From Candidatus Peregrinibacteria bacterium (GTDB taxonomy: Bacteria > Patescibacteriota > Gracilibacteria > UBA1369): 64,000 bases of DNA. A program made the position numbers and the translations under genes. Shown here in pieces: positions 8,988 through 12,560 of this stretch. The notes below the pieces were generated by a model. The model was not told where the DNA came from. It saw only the letters and a program-made list of their open reading frames with translations, and did no database searches. The DNA is taken from NCBI GenBank assembly GCA_963708185.1, contig OY970195.1, forward strand, positions 704,001 through 768,000. The letters are read 5' to 3'. Position 1 is the first letter of the stretch. Each line of letters starts with the position of its first letter.

Positions 8988-9509
8988 ATGAAAATCCTGA
9001 AACCAATCCTGACGTTGGCCCTCATGGTGGGTGCTGTGTACCTCCTCTACACGTTCCTGATTTTTCCGCTTTTTTCGCATTACGTGAAGGTGATCCACCT
9101 CGTTGACGCCGACACGCTGCTGGTGAAAGACGGCGACAAGATCATGCAGGTCCAGCTCATCGGAATTGATGCGCCCGAAAAAACCGGTCCGGCACATTCC
9201 CCGCAATGTTTCGATTCCCAGGCGCTTCATCTCACGGCTGAGGACTTTTTCTCCGACGGACAGGACGTGCGTCTGGTCCAGGACAATCTTCTCGGCGACA
9301 CCGACAACTACGGTCGTCACCTGCGTTACGTTTATCTGAAGAACGGCGACTTTCTCAATGAAAAAATGCTGGAGAACGGCCTGGGCATATTGTATACGGA
9401 TCCGAACAAGCCTTACCAGAAACAAAACCAACTGACCAAAGCCCAAGACGACGCACGTTCAAAAAACCTTGGAATCTGGGATCCACAAGGCTGTAACGGG
9501 CACTTCTAG
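8988..9509 (+). CDS. Thermonuclease (SNase-like), N-terminally anchored
   Basis: VDADT, LIGIDAPE, DNYGRHLRYV and LGIW motifs. Confidence 0.88.
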   Translation: MKILKPILTLALMVGAVYLLYTFLIFPLFSHYVKVIHLVDADTLLVKDGDKIMQVQLIGIDAPEKTGPAHSPQCFDSQALHLTAEDFFSDGQDVRLVQDNLLGDTDNYGRHLRYVYLKNGDFLNEKMLENGLGILYTDPNKPYQKQNQLTKAQDDARSKNLGIWDPQGCNGHF

Positions 9510-9532
9510 TTTTCATCTTTCCGTCCGAAAAA

Positions 9533-9570
9533 AGATTCAAAAATCCCTGTGCGACTGGAGCCGCACCGGG
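9533..9570 (-). terminator. Intrinsic terminator closing the putative ncRNA operon
   Basis: Minus strand CCCgGUGCGGC-UCCA-GUCGCACaGGG followed by AUUUUU. There is also a T-rich tract on the + side. Confidence 0.7.
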
Positions 9571-9596: not shown

Positions 9597-9873
9597 AGAC
9601 CTCCCCCGTATCTTCATGGAAACTCATGATGCCAACCACAACAAGATGAAATGCTATGAACAATTACATGTGAGTGTCGTTGGACAAACGTTAGATACCT
9701 GTTCTTTTCATGACATCAAAACCCATCACAATAAAGACAAGCACGGGAACAATTCGCTGGGCGCTGTTGTTACCGACCATGAGATTCCGAGAAAATCGAG
9801 GGAGGGAGCTGTCTTGAGGACTGGGGGTCAAAAATAAGTGACCAATGCCCAGTCCGAAGACAGCTCTCTCCCG
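9597..9873 (-). ncRNA. Putative structured ncRNA unit 3
   Basis: 5' hairpin 9872-9800 (GGGAGAGAGCUGUC/GACAGCUCCCUCCC), CCCAG 9761-9757, UGAUGGG 9728-9722, long-range helix ~9804-9764 with ~9642-9601. Confidence 0.6.
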
Positions 9874-9922
9874 CTTTTCAACGGTACGTTCTTTCAAGGA
9901 TCATGACTGAAATTTCTTCAGT

Positions 9923-10303
9923 CCCCCTTAAACTCTACGAGACAAATTTCAAACATCTGAACACCTCGGAAATTCTTAGTTCCCTCAGTAGTCACTTACC
10001 ATATTCCGTTTCCAAAATATGACAGTACCTCTCTCACGTATCGGCACATCACGTCTGACCACAGAACCGAAGTCCTACAGACAAAACAGGAGGCGTCGAC
10101 AAATGAAGTCCAACCTCTTCCCTCTACAGCCTGGTCTTTTAGACCCGCCAAGCGAAAAGGATGAGCACGCCAAGAACCTGGGGGACTCTTGGACGCGGTT
10201 TTACTCTCCATCACGCAAAGTCTAAGGAGGAAGCTGCCAAAGATCCCAAGTATGAAACCCTTTTTTCATCAATACCTAAGGTCTTTGACAGCTTTCTCCC
10301 GAG
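9923..10303 (-). ncRNA. Putative structured ncRNA unit 2
   Basis: 5' hairpin 10300-10226, CCCAG 10182-10178, UGGCGGG 10150-10144, cUUCGg and GAAA tetraloop hairpins, 17-bp closing helix 10230-10214 with 9939-9923. Confidence 0.62.
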
Positions 10304-10350
10304 CTTTTGCCGGAAAGTTGTTTTTTGTTTTTAAAGAACGTTTTATTTTT

Positions 10351-10714
10351 ACTCCCGAGTAGAGGGGTCGGATATCGAACCCAGAAGAAACGATAAAATC
10401 TCTTCCGTGGATAACCATAAGAGTGACCGAAGTCATAATTATGATGTATCCGAGGTGTCTCGGCGTATAAAGTTTGATCCAAGCCGAAGCTCGAAACAAA
10501 ACTTCATGGAGTCGAAACATATCATTCAATCTCTCTCTTAAATCACTTGACCTCCAAGCCCATCAAGCGTTGAAGAAAGGCATCGGGACGAGTTCTGGGA
10601 GAACTGTCCAAATAATCCGATCCTTCAAACCCGGGAGGAATCTGCCTAAGACGCTAGTACTGAAGCATGGTGGGAACTTGCAGTAACCAGGATTTCAGGC
10701 AGGTTTCTCCCGAG
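10351..10714 (-). ncRNA. Putative structured ncRNA unit 1
   Basis: 5' hairpin 10714-10630, CCCAG 10599-10595, UGAUGGG 10565-10559, two cUUCGg hairpins (10492-10481, 10435-10424), closing helix with 10373-10352. Confidence 0.62.
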
Positions 10715-10791
10715 ATTGAGGTGCGCAGGCAAATGGTTTTGTACCTTTGCCGTGCGTTTTTCTTGTTGTCAAAAAATCACTGTTTCATTAA

Positions 10792-10821
10792 ATTCTATCA
10801 CATAAACAGAATATGTGTCAA
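10792..10821 (-). promoter_or_regulatory. Sigma70-type promoter driving the ORF-less transcript
   Basis: Minus strand TTGACA (10821-10816), 18-nt spacer, TGnTAGAAT (-10 at 10797-10792). Predicted TSS ~10785. Confidence 0.75.
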
Positions 10822-10950
10822 TACTCCCGGGGACTTTTTTTGAAGAGGTAGTTTTGTCCAGAAACTCGGATTGATCTTTTCGGCGGATTCGGGTAAGTTT
10901 TTCACTGCAATTTTGAGCACAAAGTGCGGTTCTAACGCGCAAAAAAACAT

Positions 10951-11025
10951 GCCGGGGTAGCTCAGTGGTAGAGCGAAGGATTGAAAATCCTTGCGTCGAC
11001 AGTTCGATTCTGTCCCTCGGCACCA
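10951..11025 (+). tRNA. tRNA-Phe(GAA)
   Basis: Cloverleaf GCCGGGG...CCTCGGC-ACCA, anticodon arm AAGGA-TTGAAAA-TCCTT, TTCGA T-loop. Confidence 0.97.
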
Positions 11026-11234: not shown

Positions 11235-12560
11235 ATGCACAAGCGTTTCTCAAAATTCAAAGGCTATAAACCTTCAGGTTCAGGCGGTTCACATCGTTAT
11301 GGATCACATACTTCGTCGTCCACTTCGACTTCGACCTCTTCGAGTCCGACATCCGGCAGCCGTTATCAAGGCGGCCGTCCATTTGGAAACCGTCGTTTCC
11401 GCAAACCGATGCAAAAGAGCAAGCGGTTCGCCGGTACCACCATCAACGTGAACCAGCTCATCAACAAAGTGAACGACGACGCCTTTTTGAAACCGACCGA
11501 ACACGTGCTCCAGCACCAGTTCAGTGATTTCAAGATCGACCCTCGCATCAAGAACAACATCAAGCACAAGGGGTACATTTCTCCGACCCCGATCCAGGAC
11601 AAGGCCATCCCCGTGGGATTGGAAGGCAAGGACGTCATCGGCCTCGCCAACACCGGAACCGGCAAAACGGCTGCATTCCTGATCCCTCTCATCAACAAGA
11701 TGCTCGACAACCGCATGCAGCGGGCTTTGATTCTTGCGCCGACCCGCGAACTTGCTTTACAGATCAACGACGAGCTCAAGGAGTTTGCCAAGGGTTTCAA
11801 CCTCAATTCCGTGCTTTGCATCGGAGGGAGCAACATCATGTTCCAGATCCGCATGCTCAAGCGTCCGTTCAACTTCGTCATCGGAACACCGGGAAGAATC
11901 CTGGACCTGCTCGACCGGAAACAACTCTTCATCGACCGTTTCCAGAACGTTGTGCTCGACGAAGCCGACCGCATGGTGGACATGGGCTTCATCAACGATA
12001 TCCGTACGATTCTGGGCAAACTTCCCCGTGAACGCCAGTCGTTCTTTTTTACTGCGACGCTCGAAGCGAAAGTCGAGGAACTTATCCGACAGTTCACCAA
12101 GAATCCGGAGAAAATTTCGGTCAAACTCCGTGATACTTCCGCGAACGTCGAACAGGACATTATCCATGTTCCATCCGACAACAAAGCGAAACTGAACATT
12201 CTCATCGAACTCTTACGGAAACCGGAATTTGATAAAGTGCTGGTTTTCGGACGCACCAAGCATGGTGTGGAAAAAGTCGCCAAGGCACTGCTTGCCAGCG
12301 GCTTGAAATCAGACTCCATCCATGGCAATAAATCGCAAAACTATCGTCAGAAAGCCTTACAGCGCTTCAAACGCGGTGAAGTGAAGGTGCTGGTTGCCAC
12401 CGACGTAGCGGCGCGCGGCCTCGACATCAGCGCCGTGAGCCACGTCATCAACTTCGACATTCCGTCGAATTACGACGATTACGTCCACCGCATCGGCAGA
12501 ACGGGCCGCGCGGATCGCAAAGGTATTGCCCTGACGTTTGTTACCGGAGGCCAGGCGTAA
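11235..12560 (+). CDS. DEAD-box RNA helicase
   Basis: PTPIQ, GTGKT, PTRELA, DEADRM and HRIGRTGR motifs. Basic, Ser-rich N-terminal extension. Confidence 0.95.
   Translation: MHKRFSKFKGYKPSGSGGSHRYGSHTSSSTSTSTSSSPTSGSRYQGGRPFGNRRFRKPMQKSKRFAGTTINVNQLINKVNDDAFLKPTEHVLQHQFSDFKIDPRIKNNIKHKGYISPTPIQDKAIPVGLEGKDVIGLANTGTGKTAAFLIPLINKMLDNRMQRALILAPTRELALQINDELKEFAKGFNLNSVLCIGGSNIMFQIRMLKRPFNFVIGTPGRILDLLDRKQLFIDRFQNVVLDEADRMVDMGFINDIRTILGKLPRERQSFFFTATLEAKVEELIRQFTKNPEKISVKLRDTSANVEQDIIHVPSDNKAKLNILIELLRKPEFDKVLVFGRTKHGVEKVAKALLASGLKSDSIHGNKSQNYRQKALQRFKRGEVKVLVATDVAARGLDISAVSHVINFDIPSNYDDYVHRIGRTGRADRKGIALTFVTGGQA

What the first reader, a model, noticed from the sequence alone, without database searches (positions are those of the whole stretch)
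9601..10714. Each unit has two mutually exclusive folds: 5' hairpin vs long-range closing helix sharing the CCUCC strand
Seen in unit 1: CUCCCGGGU...GGaUCGGAU pairs with AUCCGAcCC...ACUCGGGAG (10373-10352), and CUCGGGAG occurs at both unit ends. Unit 2: CCUCCUUAGACUUUGCG (10230-10214) forms 17 contiguous pairs with CGUAGAGUUUAAGGGGG (9939-9923). Unit 3: ~9804-9764 pairs along ~9601-9642. The architecture is conserved although the sequence differs. Inference: a co-transcriptional switch or processing stalk (RNase III-like) that releases ~285, ~308 and ~205-nt mature RNAs. The contested strand is anti-Shine-Dalgarno-like (CCUCCUUA in unit 2), so ribosome or mRNA interaction is another possibility.
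Basis: partly seen in the sequence, partly recalled or inferred. Interest (0 to 1): 0.7.

Follow-up and report, generated by a model that had tools for sequence, protein, structure and literature searches.

The report
Tandem structured RNAs with leader hairpins
This stretch encodes a previously undescribed trio of large, tightly folded non-coding RNAs found in one family of tiny candidate-phyla-radiation bacteria, each preceded by a hairpin that competes for a few bases with the helix that closes the RNA.

Summary
On the minus strand, one promoter-like site (10821-10792) and one terminator (9566-9549) bracket about 1.25 kb of non-coding sequence. It holds three paralogous units, each a 5' hairpin followed by a multi-helix core shut by a long-range helix. 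No Rfam family matches.

The best-kept unit (U2, 30 homologues) has 96 predicted pairs, 67 with compensatory changes. Its core domain was found in 27 of 36 genomes of one family. It was found in 0 of 128 sampled genomes from the other families of the order.

The two "exclusive folds" overlap by only 5-8 nucleotides (CCUCC...). This is a local strand exchange at a junction, not two global folds. The closing helix covaries, including in the contested bases. The hairpin base covaries in unit 1 and in the homologous third hairpin, which in other genera is simply the array's terminator. In unit 2 its 5' GGGAG never varies.

This is only a weak hint of processing.

Most likely this is a polycistronic precursor of three stable RNAs whose leader hairpins guide folding and processing. 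The function of the cores is unknown.

The parts
10792..10821 (-). Promoter-like site TTGACA-18-TAGAAT with TG before the -10 box; probable single promoter of the array
   Evidence: 11 of 12 matches. The -35 and -10 boxes are kept in all 5 genomes of the genus alignment.
10630..10714 (-). Hairpin 1 (leader hairpin of unit 1). 5' base CUCGGGAG at 10714-10707; 3' base and contested strand CUCCCGGG at 10637-10630.
   Evidence: MFE and centroid folds. RNAalifold consensus of 9 homologues keeps the extended hairpin. Base pairs covary.
10352..10638 (-). Core 1 (287 nt). It is closed by 10638-10612 pairing with 10373-10352. The P2-P3-like domain lies at 10530-10616, with a CCCA loop at 10599-10596 and GGG at 10561-10559.
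   Evidence: 112 pairs, 34 compensatory, 9 sequences; R1 20.2 bits, E 1.9e-4. RNA-library contigs lie at 10352/10366-10629/10635.
10304..10351 (-). A/U-rich spacer between core 1 and hairpin 2
   Evidence: Sequence. Variable in length and content within the genus.
10225..10303 (-). Hairpin 2 (leader hairpin of unit 2). Invariant GGGAG at 10300-10296; contested strand CUCCU at 10229-10225.
   Evidence: The stem covaries, and pair 16/110 next to the contested bases is A.C in 24 sequences, A-U in 2, G-C in 2 and C-G in 1 (29 distinct).
9923..10230 (-). Core 2 (308 nt), the best conserved unit. The closing helix is 10230-10214 with 9939-9923. The P2-P3 domain lies at 10113-10199, with a CCCA loop at 10182-10179 and GGG at 10146-10144.
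   Evidence: Alignment A1 of 30 sequences: 96 pairs, 67 compensatory. 94.0% of cells are paired against 39-49% with slid partners, and 0 of 500 shuffles match. RNA-library contigs lie at 9919/9926-10190/10210/10220.
9874..9922 (-). Spacer between core 2 and hairpin 3
   Evidence: Sequence; genus alignment.
9800..9873 (-). Hairpin 3. GGGAG at 9872-9868; contested CUCCC at 9804-9800. It is homologous to the hairpin that serves as the array's intrinsic terminator in other genera.
   Evidence: 20 sequences, 33 pairs, 21 compensatory; a U tract follows directly in loci that lack core 3.
9600..9805 (-). Core 3 (206 nt). It is present only in this genus and a few close relatives. The closing helix runs from about 9805-9784 to about 9625-9600. 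The P2-P3-like domain lies at 9694-9778.
   Evidence: 7 sequences, 90 pairs, 18 compensatory; 8.5 bits, E 0.11; absent in close relative L053. RNA-library contigs lie at 9601/9605-9788/9792.
9540..9566 (-). Intrinsic terminator of the array (stem 9566-9549, then a U tract)
   Evidence: The stem covaries within the genus.

Best explanation
The region is a single transcription unit that makes a precursor of about 1.25 kb. The precursor carries three paralogous, highly structured non-coding RNAs of a family that is not in Rfam and is confined to one family of Peregrinibacteria/Peribacteria-like CPR bacteria.

Each core is immediately preceded by a conserved leader hairpin (GGGAGARAGCUG...CAGCUYCCUCC). 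The last 5-8 nt of the hairpin's 3' strand are also the first nucleotides of the core's closing helix.

Inferred mechanism:
1. While the transcript is being made, the hairpin forms completely and keeps the C-rich 5' strand of the closing helix paired.
2. When the G-rich 3' strand of the core emerges, it nucleates on the uncontested part of the helix. It then takes over the contested bases by short-range strand exchange.
3. Nucleases remove the hairpins and the A/U-rich spacers. Candidates are RNase III on the long hairpin stem, RNase Y in the spacers, and RNase J and 3' exonucleases trimming up to the closing helix.
4. This leaves three stable RNAs of roughly 290, 310 and 205 nt whose ends are locked in the closing helix.

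Shown: the transcript signals, the structures and their covariation, the dual complementarity, the paralogy, the phylogenetic range, and the presence of the cores in RNA libraries.

Inferred: the order of folding, the cleavage sites, the enzymes, and any function of the mature RNAs. I would guess a scaffold or particle-forming RNA rather than a regulator of a neighbouring gene.
For: Transcript signals and structure:
- One promoter-like site and one terminator bracket the region, and no ORF exceeds 86 aa.
- There is no Rfam match at gathering score, and only chance-level hits at E up to 10.
- Fold z-scores are -5.4 to -6.3.

Covariation:
- U2: 30 homologues, 96 pairs, 67 compensatory; 94.0% of cells are paired against 39-49% for slid controls; 0 of 500 shuffles match.
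- U1: 112 pairs, 34 compensatory, 9 sequences.
- U3: 90 pairs, 18 compensatory, 7 sequences.
- Invariant G-U pairs (for example 159/169, G-U in 29 of 29) fix the minus strand as the RNA strand.

Paralogy and range:
- The U2-domain model hits U1 (E 1.9e-4) and U3 (E 0.11) at the same relative place.
- It was found in 27 of 36 genomes of the family, and in 15 of 22 family genomes against 0 of 128 from 18 other families in the order sample. It was found in 0 viral contigs.

Dual pairing:
- U2 contested bases pair with the 3' strand in 141 of 145 cells, with double changes at two pairs. They pair with the 5' GGGAG in 145 of 145 cells.
- In U1 the hairpin base is paired in 66 of 72 cells and the closing helix in 70 of 72. 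Both show double changes, and one sequence has all three strands changed in concert.
- In the homologous hairpin 3 of 20 loci the basal pairs covary, and where no core follows it is the terminator.
- Across 30 U2 homologues the two states differ by -2.0 +/- 4.6 kcal/mol. In transcripts lacking the 3' strand the hairpin extension forms with P above 0.5 in 29 of 30.

Expression and enzymes:
- RNA-library contigs from 4 runs of 4 studies each lie within one core, and none bridges two cores. This is a weak hint of separate mature RNAs.
- RNase III, RNase J and RNase Y genes are present. RNase E/G was not found.
Against: - In U2 the 5' GGGAG is invariant, so the hairpin extension has no covariation of its own there. 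The pair next to it (16/110) is an A.C mismatch in 24 of 29 sequences.
- In U1 the hairpin base has an A.C mismatch at one position in 5 of 9 sequences. In U3 of L046 the 5' motif is GCGAG, which weakens it.
- In one search the register of the 3' strand was chosen as the best of many windows, which favours the closing helix.
- Equilibrium folding shows no bistability in this genome: each unit is at least 0.98 in one state.
- The expression data are assembled contigs from relatives that are 85-99% alike. They cannot show true ends, and no DNA run was laid for comparison.
- The homologues are close kin, so counts overstate independent events.
- Nothing bears on what the mature RNAs do.
Confidence: 0.55

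Rival explanations
1. Static junction. In the finished RNA the closing helix always holds the CCUCC strand, the hairpin ends at the A.C pair, and the two helices stack coaxially. The invariant 5' AAGAUAGGGAG is a single-stranded recognition site for a protein, a nuclease or a trans-pairing partner. Its complementarity to CCUCC is a by-product of the hairpins descending from a terminator-like hairpin.
For: GGGAG and the upstream AAGAUA are invariant or nearly so in 30 U2 homologues, which is more than pairing alone requires. RNAalifold chooses the closing helix for U2 and U3. In this genome the pairing probability downstream is about 1.0 for U2 and U3. Hairpin 3 shows that the hairpin type can exist without any core.
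Against: The U1 hairpin base shows three independent double changes and is chosen by RNAalifold. Basal pairs covary in hairpin 3. The hairpin extension is energetically favoured in 18 of 30 U2 homologues and forms in 29 of 30 nascent transcripts.
Confidence: 0.25
2. Attenuation. The hairpins are terminator-like elements, and competition with the closing helix sets how much polymerase reads through. In this genus hairpin 3, with its decayed U tract GAUUUUCUC, would control how much of core 3 is made.
For: Hairpin 3 is followed directly by a U tract, with no core, in most other genera. A close relative (L053) goes from hairpin 3 straight to the final terminator.
Against: Hairpins 1 and 2 have no U tract. 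The scan calls only 9566-9549 a terminator. The competing 3' strand lies about 200-300 nt downstream of the hairpin, too late to prevent termination at it.
Confidence: 0.1
3. Anti-Shine-Dalgarno mimic. The CCUCCUU strand or the SD-like GGGAG interacts with mRNAs or with the 16S 3' end.
For: The U2 contested strand shares CCUCCUU with the 16S 3' end GGAUCACCUCCUUUCUAGG. In about 10 of 30 U2 homologues the apical loop of hairpin 2 reads GACCCACCUCCUC, which contains CACCUCCU.
Against: The strand is paired in both folds. The U1 and U3 versions (CUCCCGGG, CUCCCUCG) match the 16S tail less well. There is no start codon at RBS distance after GGGAG. Short purine/pyrimidine matches of this kind are common.
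Confidence: 0.05
4. It is something already known: a divergent 6S or SRP RNA (neither is detectable elsewhere in the genome), a type III toxin-antitoxin RNA array for the neighbouring nuclease, a mobile element, or coding sequence.
For: The 6S, small SRP and large SRP models find nothing in the complete genome. An SNase-family gene lies next to the array in many genomes.
Against: No Rfam model touches the region even at E 10. The folds are multi-branched rather than rod-like. Units are 270-380 nt and divergent, and the nuclease gene is convergent and carries an N-terminal membrane or signal segment. The locus is single-copy in the genome and absent from viral contigs. The pattern of compensatory changes and non-triplet indels is that of RNA.
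Confidence: 0.04

Closest known systems
Ribosomal RNA operons with long-range processing helices (recalled knowledge: RNase III stalks flanking 16S and 23S; Bacillus-type maturation with RNase J1 and Mini-III)
   Same: Several stable structured RNAs are made from one promoter as one precursor. The 5' and 3' ends of each are brought together by a long-range helix. A/U-rich spacers separate them. The host has RNase III, RNase J and RNase Y.
   Different: There is no sequence or model similarity to rRNA, and complete 23S and 5S genes lie elsewhere. The closing-helix strands lie inside the RNA contigs rather than in removed flanks. Each unit has its own leader hairpin overlapping the helix, which rRNA stalks lack.
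Large ornate bacterial ncRNAs of unknown or structural function (OLE, ROOL, GOLLD, raiA; all in Rfam)
   Same: Size class of 200-400 nt per unit. Many covarying helices, GNRA and UUCG loops, a candidate loop-loop tertiary contact, a narrow lineage range, presence in RNA libraries and no obvious regulated gene.
   Different: No Rfam match. It occurs as two or three divergent paralogues in tandem under one promoter, with leader hairpins. It is restricted to one CPR family.
Terminator/antiterminator and leader-assisted folding switches (recalled knowledge: attenuators and riboswitch expression platforms; the 16S rRNA leader that transiently pairs with mature sequence)
   Same: One strand has two alternative partners, one made earlier than the other. 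The early hairpin is a true terminator at the third position in other genera.
   Different: There is no ligand-binding aptamer and no downstream gene in the same orientation. Only 5-8 bp are exchanged, and the late partner is 200-300 nt away.
Type III toxin-antitoxin RNA arrays (ToxI-like; recalled knowledge)
   Same: Tandem RNA units are apparently cut into single units, and a nuclease gene is next door.
   Different: Units are about ten times longer, divergent and elaborately folded. The nuclease is an SNase-family protein with a membrane or signal segment, encoded on the opposite strand. No PADLOC or TA evidence was sought.

Membership tests
Any Rfam 15 family | Covariance-model match at the family's gathering score | tested here: not met
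   only three tRNAs in the whole window; at E up to 10 the region gives only miRNA, U4 and U7 models, all far below their gathering scores.
6S RNA | Match to RF00013; a rod-like hairpin of about 185 nt with a central bubble | tested here: not met
   No RF00013 match anywhere in the genome or in the region. The cores are multi-branched.
SRP RNA (small or large bacterial) | Match to RF00169 or RF01854, including the conserved domain IV | tested here: not met
   no match in the genome; no match in the region.
RNase P RNA / tmRNA | Match to RF00010 / RF00023 | tested here: not met
   Both are found elsewhere in the genome, at C1:185828-186179 and C1:1209539-1209952, not at this locus.
rRNA-type processing stalk | The long-range helix is formed by flanks that are removed from the mature RNA | tested here: not met
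   RNA-library contigs include most of both strands of the closing helices, for example U1 10352-10635 and U3 9601-9792. This is contig evidence only.
rRNA-type processing stalk | Cleavage by RNase III | not testable with these tools
   An RNase III gene is present. No cleavage data exist.
Intrinsic terminator (hairpin 3) | A G+C-rich stem directly followed by a U tract | tested here: inconclusive
   Met in loci of other genera (L032, L006, L036, L035, L011, L056, L048, L054, L051, L049). In this window the tract is GAUUUUCUC and the scan does not call it.
Riboswitch / attenuator | Lies upstream of, and co-oriented with, the gene it controls | tested here: not met
   The array ends in a terminator, and the next gene is convergent.
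Type III toxin-antitoxin RNA | Short near-identical tandem repeats directly upstream of a co-oriented endoribonuclease toxin gene | tested here: not met
   Units are 274-381 nt and divergent. The neighbouring nuclease gene is on the other strand.

The most novel reading that the evidence does not exclude
These are a new class of abundant, ornate RNAs specific to a CPR lineage. The two or three co-transcribed paralogues would assemble, through conserved loop-loop contacts, into a hetero-oligomeric RNA or RNP particle or a ribozyme. Each carries a built-in leader hairpin that acts as a cis folding chaperone and processing signal by strand exchange with the closing helix. That would be an rRNA-like maturation logic invented independently for a non-ribosomal RNA.
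Probability: 0.15. Interest if true: 0.85.

Novelty: new variant of a known kind. Interest (0 to 1): 0.7.

Why it matters
Large, heavily covarying bacterial RNAs are rare, and the known ones have turned out to be ribozymes, ribonucleoprotein cores or self-assembling cages. This one devotes about 1.2 kb of a 1.44-Mb genome to such RNAs, in organisms that cannot yet be grown alone and whose RNA biology is almost unknown.

It also offers a clean natural case for study. One short strand has two evolutionarily maintained partners, one transcribed early and one late. That makes the role of transient leader pairing in RNA folding and processing directly testable with simple mutants in vitro.

The limits are the narrow range (one family) and the absence of any clue to the function of the mature RNAs.

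Tried and rejected
- Rfam at gathering and at permissive thresholds found nothing.
- Known housekeeping RNAs as an identity for the units were rejected. RNase P RNA, tmRNA, 23S and 5S are elsewhere and complete. 6S and SRP models hit nothing in the genome, including here.
- The phage or mobile-element idea was rejected: 0 matches in viral contigs, and the hairpin motifs occur only at this locus in the genome.
- Literature searches listed no paper on a structured RNA of Peregrinibacteria, Peribacteria or CPR of this kind.
  - In the 2017 paper on 224 candidate RNAs (PMC5737381) I saw only the passages returned by a term search. None names these phyla.
  - In bioRxiv 10.64898/2026.10.21.760802 I likewise saw only passages, and none concerns this RNA.
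  - Supplements of both were closed and could list motifs I could not see.
- The first duplex test for unit 1, using only the outer 18 nt, was not significant (50 of 500 shuffles). The full bipartite strand was (4 of 500).
- Equilibrium folding gave no bistable unit in this genome.
- Circular forms: no joints were seen in the contigs. Contigs cannot exclude them.
- Laid RNA-library contigs left the hairpins, the spacers, the leader, the terminator and both flanks (9400-9561, 10642-11000) without cover.
- The contig ends differ by 4-30 nt between runs. In run X1 they abut adapter letters, so they are not mapped RNA ends.
- Small shares in 13 RNA runs are not used to name a habitat.
- SNase as a partner of the RNA: linkage is noted, but the N-terminal hydrophobic segment suggests an exported nuclease. 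It was not pursued.
- Complex prediction, structure prediction and the large protein searches were not used, because no protein claim is made.
Full report
**What is there**

Between an SNase-family gene (8988-9509, + strand) and a tRNA-Phe gene (10951-11025, + strand) lie about 1.4 kb with no ORF longer than 86 aa. On the minus strand a near-consensus promoter-like site (TTGACA-18-TAGAAT, 10821-10792) and an intrinsic terminator (stem 9566-9549 plus U tract) bracket about 1.25 kb. Both are kept in the four other genomes of the genus, which share the whole stretch at 77-79% identity.

The transcript holds three units. Each begins with a long hairpin whose base reads GGGAGARAsCUG...CAGnUYCCUCC. 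A multi-helix core follows, shut by a long-range helix.

Nothing in Rfam 15 matches, either at gathering scores or at E up to 10.

**Checking the observation**

- Unit 2: 17 contiguous pairs (10230-10214 with 9939-9923), -25.6 kcal/mol, reached by 0 of 500 dinucleotide shuffles of the downstream sequence.
- Unit 3: -25.3 kcal/mol, 0 of 500.
- Unit 1: the full bipartite strand gives -28.9 kcal/mol, 4 of 500. Its outer part alone is unremarkable, at 50 of 500.
- Whole units fold with z = -5.38, -5.37 and -6.26.

**It is a real, conserved, structured RNA family**

A pattern for the hairpin base found 16 loci in the species-level genome collection. Fourteen are titled Peregrinibacteria, Peribacteria, Gracilibacteria or Patescibacteria MAGs; the other two are probably chance. 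A signature of unit 2 found 16 metagenome contigs and no viral contig.

Thirty full-length unit 2 homologues (29 distinct) align to a structure of 96 pairs, 67 of them with compensatory changes. For that structure plus pair 16/110 (97 pairs in all), 94.0% of cells are standard pairs. The figure is 39-49% when partners are slid by 1-3 columns, and 0 of 500 column shuffles reach any of the five measures. Invariant G-U pairs fix the strand.

Unit 1 (9 sequences) gives 112 pairs, 34 compensatory. Unit 3 (7 sequences) gives 90 pairs, 18 compensatory.

A covariance model of the P2-P3 domain of unit 2 scores 98.7 bits on unit 2. Its second and third best hits in the region lie at the equivalent places of unit 1 (20.2 bits, E 1.9e-4) and unit 3 (8.5 bits, E 0.11). 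The three cores are therefore paralogues. All three carry a hairpin with a CCCA loop, followed about 35-40 nt later by a loop with GGG. In unit 2 one sequence changes C to A and G to U at the two sites together, a single event that hints at a loop-loop contact.

The model finds the RNA in 27 of 36 genomes (16 of 25 genera) of the window's family. In an even sample of the order it finds the RNA in 15 of 22 genomes of that family and in 0 of 128 genomes of 18 other families.

**The two pairings**

The overlap is short. In unit 2 the bases CUCCY (10229-10225) can pair either with the 5' GGGAG (10300-10296) or with the 3' GGRGG of the closing helix.
- Downstream pairing: 141 of 145 cells pair, and two pairs show double changes (C-G to U-A in 3 and 7 sequences).
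- Upstream pairing: 145 of 145 cells pair, but only through C-to-U changes against an invariant GGGAG, so there is no covariation.
- The pair just inside the contested bases (16/110) is A.C in 24 sequences and A-U, G-C or C-G in 5.

In unit 1 the motif does vary. The hairpin base is paired in 66 of 72 cells, with double changes at three positions in three different sequences. The closing helix is paired in 70 of 72 cells, also with double changes. In one metagenome sequence the contested base, its 5' partner and its 3' partner have all changed together. In that count the 3' register was chosen as the best window, which favours the closing helix. RNAalifold picks the extended hairpin for unit 1 and the closing helix for units 2 and 3.

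The strongest support for the full hairpin comes from homology. In most other genera the third hairpin is followed at once by a U tract and no core, so it is the array's terminator. In an alignment of 20 such hairpins, 21 of 33 pairs carry compensatory changes, including the basal ones. A close relative (L053) goes from hairpin 3 straight to the final terminator, so core 3 is a recent addition in this lineage.

**Energetics**

In this genome the contested strand is predicted to pair upstream in unit 1 (P about 0.98) and downstream in units 2 and 3 (P about 1.0), in isolated units and in the whole precursor alike. There is no equilibrium bistability.

Across the 30 unit 2 homologues, forcing one or the other pairing changes the ensemble energy by -2.0 +/- 4.6 kcal/mol. 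The hairpin extension is favoured in 18 and the closing helix in 12. In transcripts that end before the 3' strand, the hairpin extension forms with P above 0.5 in 29 of 30. This fits a short strand exchange that happens when the 3' strand appears. It is a model result, not a measurement.

**Expression**

Thirteen metatranscriptome runs from five studies hold small shares of the stretch. Contigs of four runs from four studies, at 85% likeness or more, each lie within one core:
- core 3: 9601/9605-9788/9792;
- core 2: 9919/9926-10190/10210/10220;
- core 1: 10352/10366-10629/10635.

No contig bridges two cores. On the RNA strand the 3' ends fall at or just after the 3' GGGAG. The 5' ends fall within or shortly after the contested strand.

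These are assembled contigs of relatives. They show that the cores are present in RNA libraries, and no more than a weak hint about ends. The lack of cover elsewhere is not evidence.

The genome encodes RNase III, RNase J and RNase Y. No RNase E/G was found. A Bacillus-like maturation route is therefore available; that comparison is from recalled knowledge.

**What it is not**

- RNase P RNA, tmRNA, 23S (full model length) and 5S are elsewhere.
- 6S and SRP models find nothing in the genome, but they also do not touch this region, and the folds are branched rather than rod-like.
- It is single-copy and not viral.
- It is not upstream of a co-oriented gene.
- The neighbouring SNase-family gene is convergent in 8 of 11 loci examined. 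It carries an N-terminal hydrophobic segment typical of an exported nuclease.
- Upstream neighbours vary.

**Verdict**

RNase III cleavage, kinetics and function remain untested.

The family itself, not in Rfam and not found in five literature searches, is the more important result.

Noticed in passing
window 8988-9509 (+): An SNase-family nuclease gene with an N-terminal hydrophobic segment lies convergent, about 30-130 nt beyond the RNA array's terminator. The same arrangement occurs in 7 of 10 other loci tested. Within the family, 24 genomes have both the RNA and an SNase hit, 3 have the RNA only, 3 have SNase only and 6 have neither (kin are not independent, and some hits are paralogues elsewhere).
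   Followed up: partly
whole genome G000: The Rfam models for 6S RNA, small SRP RNA and large SRP RNA find nothing in this 99%-complete single-contig genome, while RNase P RNA, tmRNA, 23S and 5S are found. The SRP RNA of this lineage may be too divergent for the models.
   Followed up: no
window 10182-10179 and 10147-10144 (minus strand); alignment A1 columns 163-166 and 198-201: The invariant CCCA loop and the YGGG loop could form a 3-4 bp loop-loop contact. One homologue (X022) changes C to A and G to U together. Equivalent CCCA and GGG loops exist in units 1 and 3.
   Followed up: partly
alignment A1 columns 36-96 (loci L033, L032, L021, L022, L034, L036, L051, L057, L059, L060): In about 10 of 30 unit 2 homologues the apical part of hairpin 2 reads GACCCACCUCCUC. 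This contains CACCUCCU, identical to the anti-Shine-Dalgarno stretch of this genome's 16S 3' end.
   Followed up: no
L053:1773-1899 compared with window 9600-9805: Core 3 is a presence/absence polymorphism among close relatives. L053 has units 1 and 2 and hairpin 3, then runs directly into the final terminator.
   Followed up: partly
G000:C1:253084-254586 and C1:1196606-1198114: There are two RNase Y-like genes, one above the NCBIfam cut-off and one at 419 bits, just below it. RNase J and RNase III are present, and no RNase E/G was detected, so the RNA-decay toolkit is Firmicute-like.
   Followed up: no
window 10951-11025 (+): tRNA-Phe (GAA) is transcribed divergently from the RNA array, about 130 nt upstream of the array's promoter-like site. 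A DEAD-box helicase gene follows at 11235-12560. This upstream context is not conserved in other genera.
   Followed up: partly
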